DNA of 46,166 bases from a phage (GCA_017760785.1 GCA_017760785.1_4320.1); one strand, 5' to 3'. Counted from the stretch's first letter, positions 8,846 through 40,413 are shown. Numbers and translations are program-made. Notes: a model not told the origin generated them from the letters alone.

Positions 8846-10429
8846 TCACCCCAGCAATCGTGGATTAATGTAAACCTTATCACCAATCAGGCACGTATAG
8901 TTTTTCTCATCAAGCATTGGCAGTAAGTGATCTTTAATCTTCGTCATTACTCCAGCTTGGGCCTCGAATGGCTTAACTTTACGAGCAGCTTCATATAATG
9001 AACGAATGCCAACTACTCCCTTCCCATTTTTTCCTTGCTTGATCAGAATATCAATCAGCTTATTCATCTCGGCATTGTCTCCAGCGTGACCGGCGGCGTT
9101 AGCGGATGACAAATAAGTCTTACTCAGTTCCTGGAACATAATTACAGCTTCTTGCATGGTGTCGAGCTCAATCTCTCTGGATTTCTGTGGGCTCCCACCG
9201 TTATGGTTGAACCAGTTACGAACAGTATGAAGTACCGCCGCAATCCTGATGGCCTGCTTATCGAACTTACCCAGAGCGCCGCGCAACATTGTGTGTGAAT
9301 ACTTACCTCCGTCAGCAAGGTGCGGTTCCATTTCCTGGCGTGCTCTGTTGAGGTATTTCATTGCTGAGCTGCTGACTGTCAACTTTACTTCTTGCTCATT
9401 CATTATCTCATGAACTAATCGGAAGTAATCAGCCTTCAGCCCTCCGTCGATAGGCTCGTAAGTTGAATCTCCATTCTCGTCAACGAATACACGCTCGCCC
9501 AGGAATGACTTTTCACGTACAAGCAGGAAACGTTCCGATACACCGATACCTCGCGCACCAGCATTCATGATCGCATTGATTGTCTCATCCTGCGCAATTA
9601 CAGATATACAGCCCATGGCAACGAAACTCATGTTGTTTTCAGCGTTGGCGCGCGCGATAGATACGTTACCCGCATCCCATGCCTTGAGCACGAGCTCGCT
9701 GTTGGTCTTCTTCGAGCCGTCACCGTAAGTCATTCCCAATAGTGAGTTGACGCTCGTTGCCTCATCCGAGATAACCGCAAAGTTGCCCTGGCGGTTGTTT
9801 ATTCGCGCAAGACCTTCAGGTGTGGTATCTGACACTGGAAATACGATATCGCAAAGTTTCTCTAGCTTTTCCTCAAGTTCCTCTTTCTCCTCGAATAGGG
9901 AGGCCATCTCTGACGGAGATTTTTCCTGCTTCATCTCTTTGGATAATGCAGATAGCTTAGCCATAATCTTTTTTCGCTCACGCTTTCGCACTTCATTCAG
10001 CCGCTCAGTCTCGGCAATCATTGGAGCAATGGAGAGTGAGTTAATTGCTGATTTACCAGTCGATGGTGGCTGACTGGTCACGACGTACAAAGAGGTTGGC
10101 TGCTGGGTCCCGTGATACTCAACAGTAAAGCGGCCCAGCATTGCAGCGGAAACACACCCCAGGAAGTGCATGTATGCGGATGACTCAGGAAACTGAACTG
10201 AACGAGCAATGTTGGCTGACAGTTTTCCAACAACATCAATATCATTGCCGAGTGAGATTACAGGATATTTGTCATTTGCAGCATCAATCTCTACTGGCGC
10301 TTTCCAGAATGATTGAGACTGACGATAGCCATTAGCATTAATAGCGACGCGCAAAGGTGGGAGGTTGTCTGCGGAAGCGATTGCCATAACCTGTTCAATA
10401 GATAGTTTATCTTCGTTGAAATCGAACAT
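8846..10429 (-). CDS. P-loop NTPase, DUF3987-like (assignment uncertain)
   Basis: Walker A-like PPSTGKS; GGAGA SD before ATG 10429; own motif promoter; 527 aa. Confidence 0.6.
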   Translation of the reverse strand: MFDFNEDKLSIEQVMAIASADNLPPLRVAINANGYRQSQSFWKAPVEIDAANDKYPVISLGNDIDVVGKLSANIARSVQFPESSAYMHFLGCVSAAMLGRFTVEYHGTQQPTSLYVVTSQPPSTGKSAINSLSIAPMIAETERLNEVRKRERKKIMAKLSALSKEMKQEKSPSEMASLFEEKEELEEKLEKLCDIVFPVSDTTPEGLARINNRQGNFAVISDEATSVNSLLGMTYGDGSKKTNSELVLKAWDAGNVSIARANAENNMSFVAMGCISVIAQDETINAIMNAGARGIGVSERFLLVREKSFLGERVFVDENGDSTYEPIDGGLKADYFRLVHEIMNEQEVKLTVSSSAMKYLNRARQEMEPHLADGGKYSHTMLRGALGKFDKQAIRIAAVLHTVRNWFNHNGGSPQKSREIELDTMQEAVIMFQELSKTYLSSANAAGHAGDNAEMNKLIDILIKQGKNGKGVVGIRSLYEAARKVKPFEAQAGVMTKIKDHLLPMLDEKNYTCLIGDKVYINPRLLG

Positions 10430-10503: not shown

Positions 10504-10857
10504 TTACAGGTATTGCGCTTCGAAATGGTACGTATGGCAAAGAGTGTAGAAACCAACATCATCGCTACGGTATAGCTGCCAGGCATTTCCATCCTCATCG
10601 TAAATGTAGCCGGCAGACTGACCAAGCCCCGCATGAAGATTTACTTGGTAACGCTTATTCTCTTTAAAGTCTTTTTTAACTCCTGACTTGTGGTTAACTT
10701 TAGTGCAATAAAGCGTCTTGGTCTTGATATATTTACCACGCTCTTCCAGGCTAACCCATTTGCCATCTTTCTTGATTTGCTCTACACCATCTTTAACGCG
10801 AGCTTTGCATAGTACGTTTTCGTTGCTAATGAAGTTTTTAGTCAGTGTAGTAGTCAT
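10504..10857 (-). CDS. hypothetical protein
   Basis: ORF; first ATG at 10857 (track start is GTG). Confidence 0.45.
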   Translation of the reverse strand: MTTTLTKNFISNENVLCKARVKDGVEQIKKDGKWVSLEERGKYIKTKTLYCTKVNHKSGVKKDFKENKRYQVNLHAGLGQSAGYIYDEDGNAWQLYRSDDVGFYTLCHTYHFEAQYL

Positions 10858-11018
10858 TTTGTTACTCTCTTCGTTGTCCACATGAATTTGTTTGGTACTG
10901 ATTTGCGCACGATGCACACCACAATCTTATCAACCTTCTGAACTAAACCGTAAATCTTTCCGTCTAGCGACGCCCTGAAAACCGTCCACTCCATTTCGTT
11001 GTGAAAGTTATCGAACAT
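10854..11018 (-). CDS. hypothetical 54-aa protein
   Basis: hand-translated ORF directly after motif promoter; stop overlaps next start. Confidence 0.3.
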   Translation of the reverse strand: MFDNFHNEMEWTVFRASLDGKIYGLVQKVDKIVVCIVRKSVPNKFMWTTKRVTK

Positions 11019-11050
11019 GCTTGCTTACTCTCTTTCGTTTCGATGAGGTA

Positions 11051-11093
11051 ACTATACAACAAAAGCACCGAAGGGCTTTAGCAATTAGTGCTA
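11051..11093 (-). promoter_or_regulatory. motif-type promoter (TAGCACTAATTGCTAA, 21 bp, TATAGT)
   Basis: minus strand; CATCGAAACGA leader follows. Confidence 0.55.
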
Positions 11094-11471
11094 TACGCCA
11101 TAATCTATCTTAACCAGTTTCCCTTTGTAGTATCCAAAGTTCTTTGGAAAAGCGTCGTACTCAAAGAAATCACGGTCAAGCGTTCTATATTCATCATTAT
11201 CAACGTCATCATATAGCTTTTGCAGGTCGGATTTAAAAAGCTCCTCATTATCAACTGGCTCAGCCTTATGCATCACAACCATTAGGCCGAACCTGTTTGA
11301 GTATGCTATTGGGCACAGGTTCTTGTTATCAACCCCCTTCCATTGGCCCTCAGTCATGTTGCTGAGCATCCCCTGCACAAAGGCCTTCCAGGAATTAAAT
11401 CTCGGGAACTTAATCGCATACTTTTTTGTGATTAGTACAAGCCTGGTCCCACCACTTCTATTTAGTTTCAT
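11091..11471 (-). CDS. hypothetical protein
   Basis: 126-aa ORF with AAGGA SD; stop lies in TAGCAC motif. Confidence 0.5.
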   Translation of the reverse strand: MKLNRSGGTRLVLITKKYAIKFPRFNSWKAFVQGMLSNMTEGQWKGVDNKNLCPIAYSNRFGLMVVMHKAEPVDNEELFKSDLQKLYDDVDNDEYRTLDRDFFEYDAFPKNFGYYKGKLVKIDYGV

Positions 11472-11616
11472 TCCTTGCCTTCTCTATCGCCTTCAGCATA
11501 ATCTCGTGAGACTCAAGCAAGTCTTCGCGGAACCAGTCACCGCATGGCCAGCCTTTTCCGCTGTAGGCGCTTACTACCTCAAGGTCGAAGTAATTTATCT
11601 CAGATGGTAGTAGCAT
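11458..11616 (-). CDS. hypothetical 52-aa protein
   Basis: hand-translated ORF filling a gap between minus-strand genes. Confidence 0.3.
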   Translation of the reverse strand: MLLPSEINYFDLEVVSAYSGKGWPCGDWFREDLLESHEIMLKAIEKARNETK

Positions 11617-11619
11617 CTT

Positions 11620-11811
11620 TTACGCCTCCATAATGTATTCAAACTCGGATGTAAACAATGGAAGATCCCTTCCGGCAGGAGTCTTGATACTAACCTCGCC
11701 CGACTCATACTGGTGAATAACTTCGTAAACTCCCCCGATCTCCACCCCGTAGAATTCTCTCTCGTATTTACCGTGTTTTGTTTGAAAGTTGATTAATTTA
11801 ATCTTCATCAT
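11620..11811 (-). CDS. small protein, paralogue of 12227-12421
   Basis: shares YG-x3-GGVYEV-x3-YE core with 12227-12421 product. Confidence 0.45.
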   Translation of the reverse strand: MMKIKLINFQTKHGKYEREFYGVEIGGVYEVIHQYESGEVSIKTPAGRDLPLFTSEFEYIMEA

Positions 11812-12047
11812 TTCACCTCATCAAAAGTTGCTATTCCAGGAATAAACATACCAACCTTCCAGCCAGTAATGGCAATCCAACCAGAATCGTGCTTGTGCGG
11901 TCGCTCAGCGCCATTAATCAACCATTCGTTAGGGATTACCTTCCCCTTAATGATTAGCGGCTCAGCGTCGTATACAGAGCCTTTAACGAATGGTGTTAAG
12001 GCTTTCTTGTCAGTGCTGGTAATGCAGTTAGTGCAGCGAATTTTCAT
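11808..12047 (-). CDS. hypothetical small protein
   Basis: ORF; overlap with neighbouring gene. Confidence 0.45.
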   Translation of the reverse strand: MKIRCTNCITSTDKKALTPFVKGSVYDAEPLIIKGKVIPNEWLINGAERPHKHDSGWIAITGWKVGMFIPGIATFDEVK

Positions 12048-12057
12048 ATCTCAATCC

Positions 12058-12237
12058 TCAAATAAATGGTAGGCACTCTTCGCACCCAAGCCCATCACAG
12101 CACAGGAATTCATTCCCTGACTGGAATTTCTTAGCCAGGTCAATATCCAATTTTCCGCGCAACACAAGGTCAGTGTAATCTTCATTAAGCCCAATCAGTG
12201 TGCACTCGCGACGTAATTCATCTTTATCAATCTTCAT
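12058..12237 (-). CDS. hypothetical Cys-rich small protein
   Basis: C-terminal CCDGLGCEEC; start at internal ATG with GAGG SD. Confidence 0.4.
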   Translation of the reverse strand: MKIDKDELRRECTLIGLNEDYTDLVLRGKLDIDLAKKFQSGNEFLCCDGLGCEECLPFI

Positions 12238-12421
12238 AGATTTCAACCTCTCTATTGTAGAGCATAACATTACGGCCATACTTGTTAACCACTACAATTG
12301 CCTCAAGTTCAGCATAAGTAGTTACCACTTCATACACGCCGCCTTGATTGATGCCATAGTACTCATACACTTCATCATAAATATCACCACAGAAATCAAG
12401 CTCAATAACCTTTACTTTCAT
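12227..12421 (-). CDS. small protein, paralogue of 11620-11811
   Basis: first gene after minus-strand motif promoter at 12449-12492. Confidence 0.5.
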   Translation of the reverse strand: MKVKVIELDFCGDIYDEVYEYYGINQGGVYEVVTTYAELEAIVVVNKYGRNVMLYNREVEIYED

Positions 12422-12448
12422 ATCTATGTCCTCGTTGCTGATGAGCTA

Positions 12449-12492
12449 ACTATAGCGTCACCACATTAACATGTCTTTAGCAAAAAGTGCCA
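12449..12492 (-). promoter_or_regulatory. variant motif promoter (TGGCACTTTTTGCTAA, TATAGT)
   Basis: minus strand; drives 12227-12421. Confidence 0.5.
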
Positions 12493-12720
12493 TTCGTTAG
12501 ATTTATGGATTGTTGCAGATATTGAAATGATTAACATGATTATTGCACATATAGTAATATTGCTTCCGATGCAATGATTTTTTTGATTGTTGCGAAAAGT
12601 GAAATAAAGTGGTGAGTGAGTGAATGAAAGATGGATGGACTACCATACAAGTTGATTTTGATTCTGTCCGAGCCGCTTTGCGTATACGCGTTATGAAAGT
12701 TATGCCGTGTAGATAAACCT

Positions 12721-13020
12721 TTCCGCGGAAATTCATCCACGCCGTACCACGCCAGGTTACGCCATAGTTACACTATAATATCTATATATAACAACCTCTT
12801 AGTATTATTATTATTATTATAAATATTACTATGTATATCATGTAACCAATATGCCGGAGGGGGTCGATAGTTTTTTCTATGAAAATGACAATTTCTATAT
12901 ATATAAGGATAGGTGTATACCCTCCGCGTTTTCCGCGGAAATTCATCTACAGGCAAATTACACGAGCTATAGCTGGGCTGGCACGCCAAAAAACGTAACC
13001 AGCGCCAATATAAACACAAG
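12721..13020. repeat. AT-rich divergent control element, copy 1
   Basis: 17-bp direct repeat TTCCGCGGAAATTCATC at 12721 and 12931; (TAT)6 at 12803-12820; ~70 percent identical to 39790-40110. Confidence 0.7.
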
Positions 13021-13096
13021 ATAACACTTGATAACGTGTAGACGTGTGTTATTATGGGTTCACCTTAACGAATGGGAACCAATCAGGAGTAATAAA

Positions 13097-13615
13097 ATGT
13101 CAGAACATAAAGAAGCAGTAAGTCTCGGTGAAGTGGTTCGCTACATGGCTAAGCAAGCACTCAAATCCCCTACAAAATCTTACACCGTCCCGCTGCGTAT
13201 GATTGCTCGACAGGTGTACGGGCTTAGCAAGGAGGAATTTAGCAAGATTTATGAAGAAGATCTTAAGCCTGGCGGTAAGTACAACCTCAATAAGCTAAAG
13301 GCTTCATACGTTTCAAACACAGTAAGCCGAATGCCTGAAATTAAAGCGGCCAATGTTCGCTCAAAGTTTTCTATACATGATGTGGAGATTAATTTTGATG
13401 ATGTTCGTTGTGCGGTAATCTCACTTGTCCCAGGGGCTATAAATGGTGGGTCACGAAGCAAGGCTAAAGAAGAAAAGGAAGCAGCAACCATTGAGAAGTT
13501 CAAGAAACGACTACTGGCAGTCACTCCGAGTGTTATCCACCTGAGCGGGGAAAAGCTCGATGGCGCACTTTTAGCACTGTCCGCTTACCAGGAACTTATC
13601 AAGGAGGCAAAATAA
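13097..13615 (+). CDS. hypothetical protein
   Basis: ATG at 13097 with AGGAGT SD (track start 13028 is TTG). Confidence 0.5.
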   Translation: MSEHKEAVSLGEVVRYMAKQALKSPTKSYTVPLRMIARQVYGLSKEEFSKIYEEDLKPGGKYNLNKLKASYVSNTVSRMPEIKAANVRSKFSIHDVEINFDDVRCAVISLVPGAINGGSRSKAKEEKEAATIEKFKKRLLAVTPSVIHLSGEKLDGALLALSAYQELIKEAK

Positions 13616-13947
13616 TGGGGATGTTTGATTTCAATGATGGGAAGCTAAATGATAATGATATTGCAAGCATTGCGCAGCGAGATGGTTACACAATTCTTCG
13701 CGTAGCAATCAGCAACAACGGCTATCGGCAATCTCAGAAGTTCTGGGGCCAACCTAACGCTTCATCAATCTACGATGGTGACGTGCTATGTATTGTTGTC
13801 AACCGAATAAGAAAAATGGCAGCCGGAGCAAAAGGAGTGATTGAACTCCGTTCTTTGTATAACGATATTCGAAAGATTAAAAGGTTTAATGGTGGAAACG
13901 CTAGATTAATAGCACGACTTAGAGAGGAGATTATCCCGCAACTTTAG
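13615..13947 (+). CDS. internally deleted paralogue of the 8846-10429 ATPase, ended by in-frame TAG at 13945
   Basis: N-terminal ~45 aa and C-terminal ~60 aa align to the 527-aa protein; AAGGAGG SD. Confidence 0.5.
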   Translation: MGMFDFNDGKLNDNDIASIAQRDGYTILRVAISNNGYRQSQKFWGQPNASSIYDGDVLCIVVNRIRKMAAGAKGVIELRSLYNDIRKIKRFNGGNARLIARLREEIIPQL

Positions 13948-14145
13948 AAGATGAAACTCGCTTGCCTCGTTAGGGATAATGTTTATGTCAACCCGGCAAT
14001 CCTGGAGGAAGATTGGGAACCTAACTTCAAAGCCTACGAAGGTGAGCATCCTAGTAGACTACCATACCACTTAATGTACAGTGAGGACTAGGTGGGGATG
14101 GCGATTGAGCTCTACCGGAAAGCTAAATCAATCCTTAGCGGTGAA

Positions 14146-14188
14146 TAGCATGAATTGGTAAATCTTCCGCGAGTCCATTTGCTATAGT
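14146..14188 (+). promoter_or_regulatory. variant motif promoter (TAGCATGAATTGGTAA, 21 bp, TATAGT)
   Basis: same geometry before 14216 ORF. Confidence 0.45.
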
Positions 14189-14215
14189 GGACTCATTGAA
14201 GCGAAACAACAAATC

Positions 14216-14497
14216 ATGATGTTATATATGGAAACTACAGTAGAGTGCATCAAAGATTATCACGGCGAAGAGGCTGAGGTGAAGGTTATTAAGATTGAAT
14301 TTAGCGATAGTGATCTGCATCTCGTAAACATTGATTTTAACCCTGATGACGAATCCTATCCGTCAACATACATGCTGTACACTCCAGATCAGGCGCGCCA
14401 GTTAGCGGTGTATCTGATGGAAGCTGCCAACCGAGCTGATAAGGGGATTCATCCTGACGGGTATAACCAACAAATAAACCACAAGAATGGAAGTTAA
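14216..14497 (+). CDS. hypothetical protein
   Basis: ORF downstream of variant motif promoter. Confidence 0.4.
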   Translation: MMLYMETTVECIKDYHGEEAEVKVIKIEFSDSDLHLVNIDFNPDDESYPSTYMLYTPDQARQLAVYLMEAANRADKGIHPDGYNQQINHKNGS

Positions 14498-14619
14498 GTG
14501 ATCATATACGAACATAAATTAAGCAGCAGGGGTATTGATATGCTCCTGCACTATGTAGACGAAAAATACGCAAAGCTCATGCTTAAGACGCATGGCGGCA
14601 CAATAACGAGGATTAATAT

Positions 14620-14880
14620 ATGAGCAAGTACGATCGTGAGATTATTGGCATTGATGGCACGGTAACAACAATAGATGTTTATCGTGTCCTTGATGCTTTT
14701 TGCGTATCTGACCCAGCAACGCAACACGCGATAAAGAAGATGCTTTGCATGGGCTTGCGTGGTCACAAGGATTACCTTACAGATCTTAATGACTCGATTG
14801 ATTCACTACATAAGGCTAAAGAGCTTTACGGGCAGAAGATGATTCATGAATCAGATAAATCAGTTCTGAGTGGCAAATAG
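14620..14880 (+). CDS. hypothetical protein
   Basis: 86-aa ORF; stop TAG is first triplet of next motif. Confidence 0.45.
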   Translation: MSKYDREIIGIDGTVTTIDVYRVLDAFCVSDPATQHAIKKMLCMGLRGHKDYLTDLNDSIDSLHKAKELYGQKMIHESDKSVLSGK

Positions 14881-14920
14881 CACGAATTGCTAAACGCGAT
14901 CAGGAGGGTTTTGTTATAGT
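14878..14920 (+). promoter_or_regulatory. motif-type promoter (TAGCACGAATTGCTAA, 21 bp, TGtTATAGT)
   Basis: archetype copy; TG-extended -10. Confidence 0.6.
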
Positions 14921-14950
14921 TAGTTCACACCAAACGAGAGGGGATTAAAA

Positions 14951-15181
14951 ATGTCAAGGTTTGAAATTGTTCAGGCCGGTGATAGGAGCAGAAATAAAGC
15001 AGCGATAATGATTGAGCGCAGGCTATTTGGAATAGTCAAAGTTGTGTGGTTGAAGATCTACAGTAATCATCCAGATTTTGACAAGTGGAACAATACGTCA
15101 AGAAGAGATTGTTACGGATATGCAACCATGACAATGAGACATATTGAAGCAGCTTACCTAAGTTTGCTATCAGAGGTTTGA
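14951..15181 (+). CDS. hypothetical protein
   Basis: ORF after motif promoter at 14878. Confidence 0.45.
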   Translation: MSRFEIVQAGDRSRNKAAIMIERRLFGIVKVVWLKIYSNHPDFDKWNNTSRRDCYGYATMTMRHIEAAYLSLLSEV

Positions 15182-15214
15182 TTGTGCACTACAACGTTAA
15201 TAAAGGAGAATAAG

Positions 15215-15445
15215 ATGATTACAATTAACCTGTCAGAAAAGCAAGCCGCAGAACTTAAAGAGGCAATGTCTATAAAAAACATTAGATACGGCCAGTTCGA
15301 GCGACCAGAAGTTATGATAGAGGTAATTAAACAGATCAACAACCAGCAGTTCGACGTTAGTGACTTCGAGAGCTCTCGACAATACGAGGTTCTTAGCGTT
15401 AATGCTGCATACCTCGAAAACTGGGATAGGGCGACTGAGAAATGA
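15215..15445 (+). CDS. hypothetical protein
   Basis: ATG 15215 with AAGGAG SD. Confidence 0.45.
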   Translation: MITINLSEKQAAELKEAMSIKNIRYGQFERPEVMIEVIKQINNQQFDVSDFESSRQYEVLSVNAAYLENWDRATEK

Positions 15446-15615
15446 ATCTTGACAAAGAGGTATTAAGAGGTAATTTCATAGCTCACGGAATTGATGATAA
15501 AGAGTTCCTGGATTGGTTCCTTGATAAAAAAGTTGATGAGCTTGGTTTGTACTGGTTCTCAACTGGTGCGACAATGTACGAGGCATGGATGGCAGCAATG
15601 GAGACTAAGAAATGA
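15442..15615 (+). CDS. hypothetical 57-aa protein
   Basis: hand-translated; ATGA overlap with previous stop. Confidence 0.35.
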   Translation: MNLDKEVLRGNFIAHGIDDKEFLDWFLDKKVDELGLYWFSTGATMYEAWMAAMETKK

Positions 15616-15754
15616 TTTACATTCACACATACTACACAGGCAAGTTCAACAGCGTTAGCATGTTCGGCTACATGAGAAGAAGAGCGATGCGATTAAGCAA
15701 TATGAGGTTCTTGGAGGTGTAGTTATTGAGGCAATGAAAACACAAAACATTAAA

Positions 15755-15797
15755 TAGCGCGAATTGCTAAAACAGAATCGGGGTAATTTGGTATAGT
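15755..15797 (+). promoter_or_regulatory. motif-type promoter (TAGCGCGAATTGCTAA, TGgTATAGT)
   Basis: CCATCGAAACGAA leader follows. Confidence 0.6.
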
Positions 15798-15827
15798 TAC
15801 CCCATCGAAACGAACGAGGAATCAGAA

Positions 15828-16040
15828 ATGAAAATTGAAATTATCGACGTGGACTACAGACCAGAGGTAGACGTACTGACTCTTGGTGAGTGTGGATTTG
15901 AAGTTGGCGACGTAGTTGAAGTGTCCGGTCACTACGTTGATGGCAACCTTTTAATCCAGGCTATCCGTGGTAATGAGTTCGTGAGTGTAGGAAATGAAGT
16001 AAGCGCAAGCGAGCATGAATATAAGGTGGTTGAGGAATGA
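15828..16040 (+). CDS. hypothetical protein
   Basis: ORF after motif promoter at 15755. Confidence 0.45.
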   Translation: MKIEIIDVDYRPEVDVLTLGECGFEVGDVVEVSGHYVDGNLLIQAIRGNEFVSVGNEVSASEHEYKVVEE

Positions 16041-16216
16041 GATTTAGACAAAGCGAGCCTAAGCTACAGGCCAATCACTTCGACGGCTACGCAACATTCA
16101 TCATTGCCCAGGCCTGCGGAATGCGTGATGAGCCACAGGTTCACACCGTCCACTTAACCGAAGAGCAGGCCAGGGAGCTGGCTTACGAAATTCTAGAGCA
16201 ATTGAACCGAATTTAA
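16037..16216 (+). CDS. hypothetical 59-aa protein
   Basis: hand-translated; ATGA overlap with previous stop. Confidence 0.35.
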   Translation: MRFRQSEPKLQANHFDGYATFIIAQACGMRDEPQVHTVHLTEEQARELAYEILEQLNRI

Positions 16217-16267
16217 CGCGCATAAAACGCATTTTGACGAACGATAATTTAAGTAAGGTGATTCATC

Positions 16268-16393
16268 ATGGAAGCACAAGAAAGCCCTGTAGAGTGGTGC
16301 AAGAGAATGCAGGACGAAGCCAAAACTGGCGAAGAGGCCATGTCTTACTACGAGCTAGCGCAAATGTGGATGGAACGGGAGAGGAAACAATGA
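16268..16393 (+). CDS. hypothetical 41-aa protein
   Basis: hand-translated; AAGGTG SD. Confidence 0.35.
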   Translation: MEAQESPVEWCKRMQDEAKTGEEAMSYYELAQMWMERERKQ

Positions 16394-16533
16394 GCTTCAC
16401 TGAATACGTGATCGCATGTGAACGACTGGTCTTTGATATGAAGGCTTTTCACTGGTTCATCATTAAGGATTTAATCAAGCCGTACAAGCAAGGCGTGACA
16501 CCTGAGGCTTTTGTTAAGTCATTCTATAAATAG
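16390..16533 (+). CDS. hypothetical 47-aa protein
   Basis: ATGA overlap with previous ORF; ends in TAG of motif at 16531. Confidence 0.35.
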   Translation: MSFTEYVIACERLVFDMKAFHWFIIKDLIKPYKQGVTPEAFVKSFYK

Positions 16534-16573
16534 CACTAATTGCTAAACGTAGTTGCCACGGATGGCATATAAT
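16531..16573 (+). promoter_or_regulatory. motif-type promoter (TAGCACTAATTGCTAA, TATAAT)
   Basis: standard spacing before 16604 ORF. Confidence 0.55.
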
Positions 16574-16603
16574 TACCCTATCAACACAGCGAGAGATTGA
16601 TAA

Positions 16604-16798
16604 ATGAAAAACTATTTTATATTCGTTAATTACTACCTATCAAACAACTCTTCACCTATTGAATGCGACAGTATACTGCTGACTGATTACAGAGACTGCG
16701 TAGGCGCCTGGGAAACCGCGACATTTTGTTTTGGTCGACATAAAGAGAAGTGTGGATATGCGTCTTTCGTAATAACTGAATTCAAGGAGATTAAATAA
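16604..16798 (+). CDS. hypothetical protein
   Basis: ORF after motif promoter at 16531. Confidence 0.45.
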   Translation: MKNYFIFVNYYLSNNSSPIECDSILLTDYRDCVGAWETATFCFGRHKEKCGYASFVITEFKEIK

Positions 16799-17037
16799 TG
16801 TTCGGACTAGAAGATTCATACTTCAACGCAGTAAAGCACCAGGCTGACAAGCTTAACGATGAGTACGGAAAGCTTAGTTCCAAGCAGCGAAAAGACAATC
16901 ATGTTGTTGCTGCTCTAATCACGAAAGTCTGGGGTCCCGTATCAATGCTCATTAGTCGTGACAAATTCACTTGGATTGCAGGGTACAGGCGAGGCCTGGT
17001 TGGTCATGACGAGAATGGGAATAGCCTTTATGAGTGA
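16798..17037 (+). CDS. hypothetical protein
   Basis: 79-aa ORF; start overlaps previous stop. Confidence 0.45.
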   Translation: MFGLEDSYFNAVKHQADKLNDEYGKLSSKQRKDNHVVAALITKVWGPVSMLISRDKFTWIAGYRRGLVGHDENGNSLYE

Positions 17038-17330: not shown

Positions 17331-17408
17331 GCTCCGCTAGCTCAATGGGATAGCAGCAACGACCTTCTAAGTCGTAGGTTGCTGGTTCGAATCCAGTGCG
17401 GAGCGCCA
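17331..17408 (+). tRNA. tRNA-Arg (anticodon TCT)
   Basis: acceptor stem GCTCCGC/GCGGAGC, anticodon stem ACGAC/GTCGT with loop CTTCTAA, T-loop TTCGAAT, 3' GCCA; D-arm atypical. Confidence 0.7.
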
Positions 17409-39789: not shown

Positions 39790-40110
39790 CTCATCCGCGG
39801 AAAATGATATACGCGATATTACGCCAATTTACGCATTGGTTACATTAAAATATCTATATATATCAACACTTTACTCTTATTATTATTATTATATATATTA
39901 CTGTGTATATCATGTAACTACTTCTATAGAGTGTTCCGGTTATAATTTTCTAATATGTACATTTATACAGTATCTAGCGACAAGCATACCAATGCACCAA
40001 CCCCCGCGAGAAATGGTATACACTATATACACACTGGTTACATTGAGCTATGCCTCGGATGGGATGCCAAAAAGCGTAACTAACGCCAATATCTACACAT
40101 AATTACAATG
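39790..40110. repeat. AT-rich divergent control element, copy 2
   Basis: shares ATATCTATATATA, (TAT)5 at 39878-39892, TATTACTGTGTATATCATGTAAC and GCCAAAAAGCGTAAC...CGCCAATAT blocks with copy 1. Confidence 0.7.
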
Positions 40111-40135
40111 ATTCACACGTAAGTCTGAATCAACG

Positions 40136-40179
40136 ATTGGATAAACCAATTGGACTGTCTATGGTGCTGAATATATAGT
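40136..40179 (+). promoter_or_regulatory. alternative palindrome ATTGGATAAACCAAT upstream of TATAGT
   Basis: perfect 5-N5-5 inverted repeat at same distance from -10 as TAGCA palindromes. Confidence 0.45.
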
Positions 40180-40218
40180 TAACCCATCGAAAGCAAACAA
40201 CCACAGAGAGATACAGAA

Positions 40219-40413
40219 ATGACCTACTACATTATCAAAGAGAAAAACAACGCACTGTTCTGCGACTGCTACTTTGGTGGCCCAGCCGGATACACCACAG
40301 ATAAGAACGAGGCTGACAGATTCGAGACAAAAGAAAGAGCCAGAGATTTTCTGACTGGTTACCTCACTGAGGAAGATTTAAAGTCGGTTAAAGTAGTTAA
40401 GGTTAAGGGGTGA
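40219..40413 (+). CDS. hypothetical protein
   Basis: 64-aa ORF after ATTGG palindrome promoter. Confidence 0.45.
   Translation: MTYYIIKEKNNALFCDCYFGGPAGYTTDKNEADRFETKERARDFLTGYLTEEDLKSVKVVKVKG

What the first reader, a model, noticed from the sequence alone, without database searches (positions are those of the whole stretch)
13615..14091. Internally deleted paralogue of the ATPase, interrupted by an in-frame TAG
The 13615-13947 product (MGMFDFNDGKL...RVAISNNGYRQSQKFWGQP...) aligns to the first ~45 residues of the 527-aa ATPase (MFDFNEDKL...RVAINANGYRQSQSFWKAP) and then to its C-terminal ~60 residues (GVIELRSLYNDIRKIK vs GVVGIRSLYEAARKVK). The P-loop core is missing. The ORF stops at TAG 13945-13947, yet similarity continues in the same frame afterwards (KLACLVRDNVYVNPAIL vs YTCLIGDKVYINPRLL) up to a stop near 14091. 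This is therefore either a recent nonsense mutation in a mini-paralogue, or an amber codon read through in suppressor hosts. The copies are on opposite strands and about 65 percent identical at DNA level, so the duplication is old. A protein keeping only the terminal domains could act as a regulatory or dominant-negative partner of the full-length enzyme.
Basis: seen in the sequence. Interest (0 to 1): 0.6.

Follow-up and report, generated by a model that had tools for sequence, protein, structure and literature searches.

The report
Broken copy of a helicase-derived mini-gene
This is a dead copy, with two premature stop codons, of a small early phage gene that long ago arose from the two ends of the phage's own replicative helicase; related phages have lost the same gene many times independently, so the in-frame TAG is ordinary gene decay and not stop-codon read-through.

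Summary
The window is an Rtp-like coliphage (Drexlerviridae, Braunvirinae). The 13615-13947 product matches the first 45 residues (56% identity, E 8e-14) and the last ~70 residues (33%, E 1e-12) of the 527-aa DUF3987 helicase at 8846-10429(-), and the match runs through the TAG.

The feature is larger than reported. It is a ~175-codon gene (13615/13621-14148) of a conserved, uncharacterised family (phrog_7327). That family has at least 120 intact clusters of 168-182 aa and dN/dS of about 0.21.

The window's copy has two premature TAGs (13945 and 14089). Each corresponds to GAG in its nearest relative IME542 and in several others. The gene's natural terminator is also TAG (14146). There is no suppressor tRNA, no other gene has an in-frame TAG, and 7 of 54 conserved genes end in TAG. 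Read-through is therefore not supported.

The same gene is broken or deleted in 18 of 42 related loci, through about 19 independent lesions (TAG, TAA, TGA, frameshifts, deletions). The adjacent gene is never broken (0 of 41, p=7e-7).

Part of the similarity after the TAG comes from a conserved ~100-nt DNA block that survives even in untranslated deletion remnants.

The intact protein is a three-helix N-domain, a winged helix and a tail. Its function is unknown; a likely role is competing for the helicase's docking partners.

The parts
13615..14148 (+). Whole pseudogene: a phrog_7327 family member (helicase-terminus mini-paralogue). Start is ATG 13615 or ATG 13621; the natural stop is TAG 14146-14148.
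   Evidence: Aligns without gaps over all 175 codons to intact relatives (JeanPiccard, SU57, TR1 and others). The 110-aa part matches phrog_7327 at E 3.7e-31.
13615..13947 (+). The only ORF still open (110 aa). It covers the N-terminal three-helix domain and winged-helix helices H1-H3, and lacks the beta-hairpin wing and the tail.
   Evidence: ORF list. Secondary structure of the intact homologue model: H11-21, H25-33, H36-41, H55-69, E73-75, H76-85, H93-110, E114-117, E120-123, H155-172.
13945..13947 (+). Premature stop 1: TAG at family codon 109.
   Evidence: Relatives have GAG, GAT, GAC or CAG here; the nearest relative IME542 has GAG.
14089..14091 (+). Premature stop 2: TAG at family codon 157, where Glu is invariant in the family.
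   Evidence: GAG in 14 and GAA in 1 of 15 aligned relatives. E157 is an invariant column in the 35-sequence alignment.
13601..13607 (+). Shine-Dalgarno sequence AAGGAGG, 7 nt upstream of ATG 13615. The start overlaps the upstream gene's stop (TAATG).
   Evidence: Read directly from the sequence. The same overlapping arrangement is annotated in relatives.
13097..13615 (+). Upstream gene of the same early operon (DUF7174, 172 aa). It is always intact and served as the control gene.
   Evidence: Pfam PF23796 at E 3e-49. Unbroken in 41 of 41 loci.
8846..10429 (-). Parent-type gene: a 527-aa DUF3987 helicase with an MCM-like AAA+ fold.
14049..14155 (+). Conserved DNA block inside the 3' end of the pseudogene; its core 14-mer GACTACCATACCAC lies at 14057-14070. 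Likely a recombination junction or a cis element.
   Evidence: Synonymous-codon identity is 0.86-0.91 here against ~0.55-0.65 elsewhere. Column conservation is at least 0.83. The block is present in untranslated deletion remnants. No RNA structure was found.
13028..13055 (+). Promoter-like site (TTGATA, 16-nt spacer, TG-extended TATTAT) upstream of the DUF7174/mini-gene operon.
   Evidence: Best consensus match in the region, 10 of 12. This is a consensus match only.

Best explanation
Window 13615-14148 is a recently inactivated copy (pseudogene) of a conserved ~175-aa early gene of Braunvirinae phages (phrog_7327).

Origin of the family: it is an ancient domain-deletion paralogue of the phage's MCM-like DUF3987 replicative helicase. 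It keeps the helicase's N-terminal three-helix domain (residues ~1-45) and its C-terminal winged-helix domain (~450-527). It has lost the whole ATPase core and gained a ~50-residue tail.

State of the window's copy (shown): two G-to-T changes turned Glu codons into TAG at codons 109 and 157. At most a 110-aa fragment can be made, and it lacks the winged-helix wing (the family's most invariant motif, N-x-x-C-L-I-G-D) and the tail. Loss of this gene is recurrent across the group.

Function of the intact protein (inferred, not shown): it docks onto the same partner or partners as the helicase termini, such as the primase, a loader or origin DNA. It would thereby modulate helicase loading early in infection. 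It is dispensable or costly in many hosts, which is why null alleles keep arising.
For: Homology to both helicase termini:
- Pairwise alignments and reciprocal PHROG cross-hits.
- Identical secondary-structure elements in the two AF2 models.

The family is real and under constraint:
- At least 120 clusters at 90% identity, all 168-182 aa.
- dN/dS of 0.21 among 10 intact copies.

The window's copy is broken:
- Two premature TAGs at codons that are GAG in the nearest relative IME542 and in several others (codon 157 is GAG in 14 of 15).
- 8 deviations at 56 columns that are at least 95% conserved, against a mean of 0.97 and a maximum of 5 in 120 intact proteins.
- dN/dS of 0.24 against intact copies, implying that most divergence preceded the inactivation.

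TAG is not recoded:
- The natural stop is TAG.
- tRNA-Arg is the only phage tRNA.
- No in-frame TAG in other genes.
- 7 of 54 conserved genes end in TAG.

Recurrent loss:
- 18 of 42 loci are broken, against 0 of 41 for the adjacent gene (Fisher p=7e-7).
- Lesions: 13 nonsense events at different codons (7 TAG, 3 TAA, 3 TGA), 2 frameshifts and 4 deletions.
- About half of the 48 hits among 50%-identity representatives are short fragments.

Background: a DUF3987 protein has been shown to be a 5'-3' helicase whose N-terminal domain accompanies primase binding (PMC11724360).
Against: - No experiment or interaction prediction supports the proposed docking or competitor role. PADLOC, NCBIfam, PDB sequence searches and the literature gave nothing for the family.
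- The window's lineage is divergent (best intact relative 69% identical), so some of the 8 'deviant' residues may be lineage-specific rather than decay.
- The Shine-Dalgarno sequence and start codon are intact, so a 110-aa fragment is probably still made and could retain some activity.
- Raw reads were not examined.
Confidence: 0.85

Rival explanations
1. Programmed or suppressor-dependent amber read-through: the TAGs are decoded, for example as Gln in supE hosts, so that a full-length protein is made at a low or host-dependent level.
For: The frame and similarity are kept after both TAGs. Both premature stops are TAG, and TAG is the commonest nonsense codon among broken relatives (7 of 13).
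Against: - The gene's own terminator is TAG.
- No relative has a stop at either position.
- No suppressor tRNA is present in the phage.
- TAG ends 7 of 54 conserved genes, and no other gene has an in-frame TAG.
- Relatives carry TAA, TGA, frameshifts and whole-gene deletions in the same gene.
- The TAG excess is explained by the many GAG codons in this Glu-rich protein.
- Similarity after the stop is partly DNA-level and persists in untranslated remnants.
Confidence: 0.03
2. Sequencing or consensus error: the phage really has GAG at one or both positions, and the gene is intact.
For: Only one read set (ERR054697) underlies the sequence. Both changes are G-to-T, which is a known oxidative-damage artefact in sequencing libraries.
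Against: - Two independent assemblers give identical sequence over 6.3 kb, including both TAGs.
- Two separate errors reaching the consensus within 150 nt are improbable.
- The copy also carries seven missense changes at otherwise near-invariant sites.
- 17 other loci show that the gene is commonly broken.
Confidence: 0.03
3. Selected truncation rather than a null: the 110-aa fragment (N-domain plus a wing-less WH) is a functional new allele, for example a tail-less version with altered or dominant-negative activity.
For: - The Shine-Dalgarno sequence and start are intact.
- Across relatives, nonsense codons are non-uniformly placed: 7 of 13 lie in codons 132-157 (22% expected, p=0.012) and only 1 of 13 in codons 45-131 (45% expected, p=0.005). 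That pattern could mean tail removal is favoured.
Against: - Five lesions lie at codons 12-44, and four deletions remove nearly the whole gene, so complete nulls are tolerated.
- The window's truncation removes the family's most invariant motif.
- The positional statistics are post hoc, with n=13.
- The copy has extra substitutions at conserved sites within the retained part as well.
Confidence: 0.09

Closest known systems
phrog_7327 (PHROGs v4, 'unknown function'); for example Bas02 JeanPiccard bas02_0063, SU57_0002, IME253 gp21, ESCO41 gp02
   Same: Full-length collinear homology, the same position directly after the DUF7174 gene with overlapping stop and start, and the same TAG terminator.
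   Different: The window's copy has two premature TAGs and excess substitutions at conserved sites, so it is a pseudogene of this family. The family itself has no assigned function. Searches on DUF3987, DUF7174, Drexlerviridae escape mutants and Braunvirinae/helicase/pseudogene turned up no paper describing it or its relation to the helicase.
DUF3987 (PF13148) / phrog_2373 helicases; characterised example AgaPH, a PriCT-DUF3987 5'-3' helicase (PMC11724360); MCM-like AAA+ fold
   Same: The N-terminal three-helix domain and the C-terminal winged helix are homologous to those of the phage's own DUF3987 helicase.
   Different: It has no ATPase core, no Walker motifs and no Pfam DUF3987 match, so it cannot be a helicase. 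It carries an extra ~50-residue tail that the helicase lacks.
C-terminal winged-helix domains of MCM and ORC/Cdc6 proteins, which act as docking and regulatory modules of replicative AAA+ machines (established knowledge)
   Different: The resemblance is structural only, at 8-19% identity. No binding partner is known here, and WH is a very common fold.
Shortened forms of phage replication proteins that work alongside the full-length enzyme, for example T7 gp4B with gp4A and phiX174 A* with A (recalled from general knowledge, not tested here)
   Same: A smaller protein sharing domains with a replication enzyme of the same phage.
   Different: Those are made from internal starts in the same gene and keep the catalytic domains. 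This is a separate, diverged gene on the opposite strand that keeps only the non-catalytic termini.

Membership tests
phrog_7327 mini-protein family | Significant match to the family profile | tested here: met
   The 110-aa ORF matches phrog_7327 at E 3.7e-31, covering profile positions 1-108 of 179. The whole 175-codon frame aligns without gaps to intact members.
phrog_7327 mini-protein family | Position immediately downstream of the DUF7174 gene, with stop and start overlapping | tested here: met
   TAATG overlap at 13613-17. The same layout is found in JeanPiccard, SU57, TR1, BEK6 and others.
phrog_7327 mini-protein family | Uninterrupted ORF of ~168-182 aa | tested here: not met
   Premature TAGs at 13945 and 14089. 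All 120 database members are 168-182 aa. The window's copy is therefore a pseudogene of the family, not a functional member.
phrog_7327 mini-protein family | Invariant wing motif N112-x-x-C115-L116-I117-G118-D119 | tested here: not met
   The window has K-L-A-C-L-V-R-D, which changes N to K, I to V and G to R, and the motif lies after the first stop.
DUF3987 (PF13148) helicase | [quoted passage not shown] | tested here: not met
   No Pfam hit for the read-through product. The core (residues 81-430 of the 527-aa protein) has no counterpart.
Programmed stop-codon read-through or recoding | The stop codon is conserved at the site in relatives | tested here: not met
   Codon 109 is GAG, GAT, GAC or CAG and codon 157 is GAG or GAA in all aligned relatives.
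Programmed stop-codon read-through or recoding | A decoding agent (suppressor tRNA) or genome-wide avoidance of the codon as a terminator | tested here: not met
   Only tRNA-Arg(tct) is present. TAG terminates 7 of 54 conserved genes and this gene itself. The host's tRNAs could not be examined.
Programmed stop-codon read-through or recoding | A full-length product is detectable | not testable with these tools
   This needs mass spectrometry or ribosome profiling.
Winged-helix fold | H1-S1-H2-H3-S2-S3 topology with a structural match to solved WH domains | tested here: met

The most novel reading that the evidence does not exclude
phrog_7327 is a mimic of the docking ends of the replicative helicase and is under antagonistic selection. 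It is useful in some hosts, for example as a regulator of helicase loading or as a decoy. In other hosts it is harmful, for example because a host immune sensor recognises it. That would explain why null alleles, including this double-amber one, are repeatedly selected rather than simply drifting in. In addition, the conserved ~100-nt DNA block at the gene's 3' end would be a functional cis element or recombination anchor that outlives the gene.
Probability: 0.15. Interest if true: 0.6.

Novelty: new member of a known kind. Interest (0 to 1): 0.33.

Why it matters
For this window the result is mainly a correction. The in-frame TAG is gene decay, not recoding, so the two ORFs at 13615-13947 and 13951-14091 should be annotated as one pseudogene running to 14148.

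Two modest leads follow:
1. An unannotated family common in Braunvirinae can now be described as 'helicase N-domain plus C-terminal winged helix, without the motor'. That gives a concrete hypothesis, competition for the helicase's docking partners, which can be tested in the BASEL phages Bas01 and Bas02.
2. The gene is inactivated in ~40% of sampled genomes while its neighbour never is. Conditionally costly phage genes show this pattern, and such genes are useful entry points for finding host factors or defences that act on phage replication proteins.

The work also shows that conservation after a stop codon can come from an overlapping DNA element and is not by itself evidence of translation.

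Tried and rejected
- Amber suppression or recoding: rejected. There is no suppressor tRNA, no other in-frame TAG across 60+ genes compared with the IME542 proteome, TAG is used as an ordinary terminator, and the stop is not conserved in relatives.
- Gene conversion or concerted evolution between the mini-gene and the helicase: rejected. DNA identity is 51-55%, third positions are 38% identical, and within-genome N-terminal identity (0.52) equals between-genome identity (0.52).
- Structured RNA or a known RNA family in the conserved 3' block: rejected. There is no Rfam hit at E up to 1, and RNAalifold gives -3.85 kcal/mol with 0 compensatory pairs.
- An overlapping ORF in another frame as the cause of the synonymous conservation: rejected by inspection. 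The other frames carry stops or are not conserved in the window.
- Translated 'tail-only' mini-ORFs in G8, T145P1 and ES: rejected, because there is no in-frame start.
- Functional annotation through PADLOC, NCBIfam, PDB sequence search and BFVD: nothing beyond family members and helicase WH domains.
- Literature searches (DUF3987 with phage; DUF7174; Drexlerviridae escape mutants; Braunvirinae with helicase or pseudogene) gave no description of this family. One search failed on a term that was too short.
- Host correlation of intact versus broken alleles: no obvious pattern among K-12, BL21, E. coli C and clinical hosts. Uncultured sequences (4 of 12 broken) and isolates (14 of 30 broken) are similar, so this is not a laboratory-passage artefact. 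The comparison was made by inspection only.

Full report
**Identity of the window.**
A 1.8-kb query around the finding hits only Drexlerviridae/Braunvirinae coliphages (IME542, G8, Rtp, the Veterinaerplatzvirus group) at about 78-85% identity. The exact 110-aa product and the 527-aa protein are recorded in NCBI as third-party annotation of an E. coli assembly. They also occur on a 46,196-bp Logan contig from run ERR054697, whose 6.3-kb stretch fetched around the gene (window 10615-16947) is identical to the window. The window is therefore a lytic Rtp-like phage that was sequenced together with an E. coli isolate.

**Checking the observation.**
The ORF at 13615-13947 (110 aa) and the in-frame TAG at 13945-13947 are as described. 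With the TAG masked, the product aligns to the 527-aa protein at 8846-10429(-) in two pieces. Residues 3-47 align to 1-45 (56% identity, E 8e-14). Residues 61-130 align to 458-526 (33% identity, E 1e-12), and this piece spans the TAG. The large protein is a DUF3987 protein (Pfam E 1.6e-41, residues 81-430), while the small one has no Pfam hit. Identity is 55% for the N-terminal part and 51% for the C-terminal part, and third codon positions are 38% identical. The duplication is therefore old, and the protein similarity has been maintained by selection.

Relatives carry, at exactly this place, one intact ORF of about 175 aa. It sits directly after the DUF7174 gene with overlapping stop and start. 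Examples are JeanPiccard bas02_0063, SU57_0002 and the TR1 gene. Aligned to these, the window's frame continues past 14091. TAG 14089-14091 is a second premature stop, and homology runs on to the natural terminator, TAG 14146-14148, which is also the terminator in the intact relatives. The nearest relative, IME542, has GAG at both premature TAG positions. Codon 157 is an invariant Glu (GAG in 14 and GAA in 1 of 15 aligned relatives), while codon 109 varies among GAG, GAT, GAC and CAG.

**The family.**
- A protein search returned 326 hits, and the best 120 clusters at 90% identity are all 168-182 aa long.
- The family is phrog_7327, annotated 'unknown function'. The helicase is phrog_2373. Each cross-hits the other's profile.
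- Pairwise dN/dS among ten intact copies has a median of 0.21, which indicates purifying selection.
- A tail-specific tblastn search finds the gene in 83 phage records, essentially all of them Escherichia Braunvirinae.
- A profile search of 1.84 billion 50%-identity representatives finds only 48 hits: about nine full-length mini-protein clusters, some helicases, and many short fragments.

**Structure.**
- The AF2 model of an intact member (pLDDT 81, pTM 0.71) has an N-terminal three-helix domain (residues 11-41). It also has a winged helix (H55-69, E73-75, H76-85, H93-110, and a beta-hairpin at 114-123) and a low-confidence tail ending in helix 155-172.
- A DUF3987 protein has been shown experimentally to be a 5'-3' helicase with an N-terminal partner domain and a small C-terminal domain (PMC11724360).
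- The mini-protein is therefore the helicase's two non-catalytic ends joined together, plus a new tail.

**Is TAG read through?**
Every test says no.
- The gene's own stop is TAG.
- The phage encodes only tRNA-Arg(tct).
- A tblastn comparison of all IME542 proteins with the window finds no other in-frame TAG.
- Of 54 conserved genes, 7 end in TAG, 31 in TAA and 16 in TGA.
- No relative has a stop at either position.

**Recurrent inactivation.**
I classified 42 distinct loci, drawn from isolates, IMG/VR and metagenomes. The mini-gene is intact in 24 and broken or deleted in 18. The adjacent DUF7174 gene is unbroken in all 41 loci that contain it (Fisher p=7e-7).

The lesions are different in different lineages:
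- The window: codons 109 and 157, both TAG.
- 12210III group: codon 141, TGA.
- CEB_EC3a: codon 38, TAA.
- DTL: codon 142, TAG.
- TR3, Rao1 and CY1: a shared TAG at codon 12. Rao1 has an extra TAG at codon 44.
- phiA2-1: codon 146, TGA.
- Msk: codon 37 TAA and codon 132 TAG.
- Two metagenomic copies: TAA at codon 153 and TAG near codon 141.
- IME542: TGA at codon 34 plus a frameshift.
- One metagenomic copy: a frameshift.
- Four deletions: Rtp keeps codons 1-19. G8 and T145P1 keep only the last ~32 codons, and so does ES through a separate deletion. One metagenomic copy has an in-frame deletion of codons 25-146.

That makes about 19 independent events. Among the 13 nonsense events there are 7 TAG, 3 TAA and 3 TGA. 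The TAG excess reflects the many GAG codons in this protein.

The window's copy also deviates at 8 of 56 columns that are at least 95% conserved, against a mean of 0.97 and a maximum of 5 in intact proteins. Its dN/dS against intact copies is still 0.24. Most of its divergence therefore accrued under constraint, and the inactivation is comparatively recent. Its nearest relative, IME542, is broken by different lesions.

**Why similarity persists after the stops.**
Synonymous-codon identity along the gene is about 0.55-0.65 up to codon ~125, then rises to 0.86-0.91 over codons 136-160. At the nucleotide level, a block at window ~14049-14155 is at least 83% conserved in all loci. The block's core 14-mer, GACTACCATACCAC, lies at 14057-14070 and occurs once in each of 39 of the fetched loci. 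The block is equally conserved in the untranslated remnants of G8, T145P1, ES and mgL051. The 3' breakpoints of those deletions all lie within ~15 nt of its left edge.

There is no Rfam match and no covariation-supported RNA fold. Immediately downstream, the sequence switches among at least four unrelated module types that do not follow the mini-gene's phylogeny. The best reading is a recombination junction or homology anchor, or possibly a protein-binding cis element. Either way, conservation after the TAG is not evidence of translation.

**Mechanism.**
Shown: the window's copy can encode at most a 110-aa fragment that ends at the last WH helix. It lacks the wing motif (N-x-x-C-L-I-G-D, the most invariant stretch of the family) and the tail.

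Inferred: the intact protein shares the helicase's two docking-type domains, and it is expressed from the first operon next to the pac site (TR1 paper, PMC10450929). It is therefore most simply a competitor or adaptor for whatever binds the helicase termini, such as the primase, a loader or origin DNA. Whether the repeated losses are neutral or selected cannot be decided here. The non-uniform placement of nonsense codons is suggestive only. Seven of 13 lie in codons 132-157 (p=0.012) and 1 of 13 lies in codons 45-131 (p=0.005), but the test is post hoc and the sample is small.

**Verdict.**
- The nonsense-mutation reading is right and the read-through reading is not supported.
- The feature is a pseudogene of a catalogued but uncharacterised family.
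- It is ordinary as a recoding candidate.
- The family offers two modest leads: its helicase-termini architecture and its recurrent loss.

Noticed in passing
window 14049-14155 (core 14-mer 14057-14070): A DNA block of about 100 nt inside the 3' end of the pseudogene has synonymous-site identity of 0.86-0.91, against ~0.6 elsewhere in the gene. It is retained in untranslated deletion remnants of other phages and is followed by at least four unrelated downstream module types. It has no RNA structure and no Rfam hit. It is probably a recombination junction or a cis element.
   Followed up: partly
window 12720-12737 and 12930-12947: An exact 18-nt direct repeat, TTTCCGCGGAAATTCATC, containing the palindrome TTTCCGCGGAAA. 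It occurs twice, 210 nt apart, in the divergent intergenic (pac-proximal) region, with 0 matches expected by chance. It could be an operator, or a pac- or ori-related site.
   Followed up: partly
window 13097-13612: The always-intact upstream DUF7174 protein gives a weak, long-range sequence match to ribosomal protein S4 (6v39_d, E 0.007, over ~130 residues; a second S4 entry at E 0.57). The match is marginal. If real, it would mean an S4-like RNA-binding protein is encoded as the first early gene.
   Followed up: no
window 40061-40380: The homologue of IME542 QAU04438 (115 aa) is disrupted in the window. Its N-terminal half (about 40061-40216) has three in-frame stops and a frame change, while its C-terminal half, starting MTYYIIKEK, is open. 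This is either a second decayed gene or an over-extended annotation in IME542.
   Followed up: partly
window 14171-14194: The inverted repeat GAGTCCA (14171-14177) / TGGACTC (14188-14194) brackets a TG-extended -10-like TATAGT (14183-14188), just downstream of the pseudogene and upstream of the next gene (14216-14497). Relatives have different sequences at this site, but they often contain inverted repeats as well.
   Followed up: no
L051 1501-1656 (metagenome Ga0079226_10013624); representative protein P0273: An in-frame deletion fuses codons 1-24 to codons 147-175 of the mini-gene, giving a ~52-aa ORF. A 51-aa representative cluster with the same two-stretch match exists in the protein library. 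This particular remnant therefore recurs or persists.
   Followed up: no
relatives, family codons 132-157: Premature stops in the mini-gene cluster in the tail region and avoid the winged-helix region more than mutational opportunity predicts (p about 0.01 and 0.005; n=13; tested post hoc).
   Followed up: partly
BFVD hits: Jk06 JK_55P (166 aa), phiKP26 M4QF30 (139 aa), Salmonella phage 36 A0A0N7CFM1 (116 aa): Other T1-like phages outside Braunvirinae encode small proteins whose models match the same helicase-type winged helix at 27-36% identity. Stand-alone copies of the helicase WH may therefore have arisen more than once.
   Followed up: no
window 17331-17408: A single phage-encoded tRNA-Arg(tct), which reads the rare AGA codon. 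It is unrelated to the finding.
   Followed up: no
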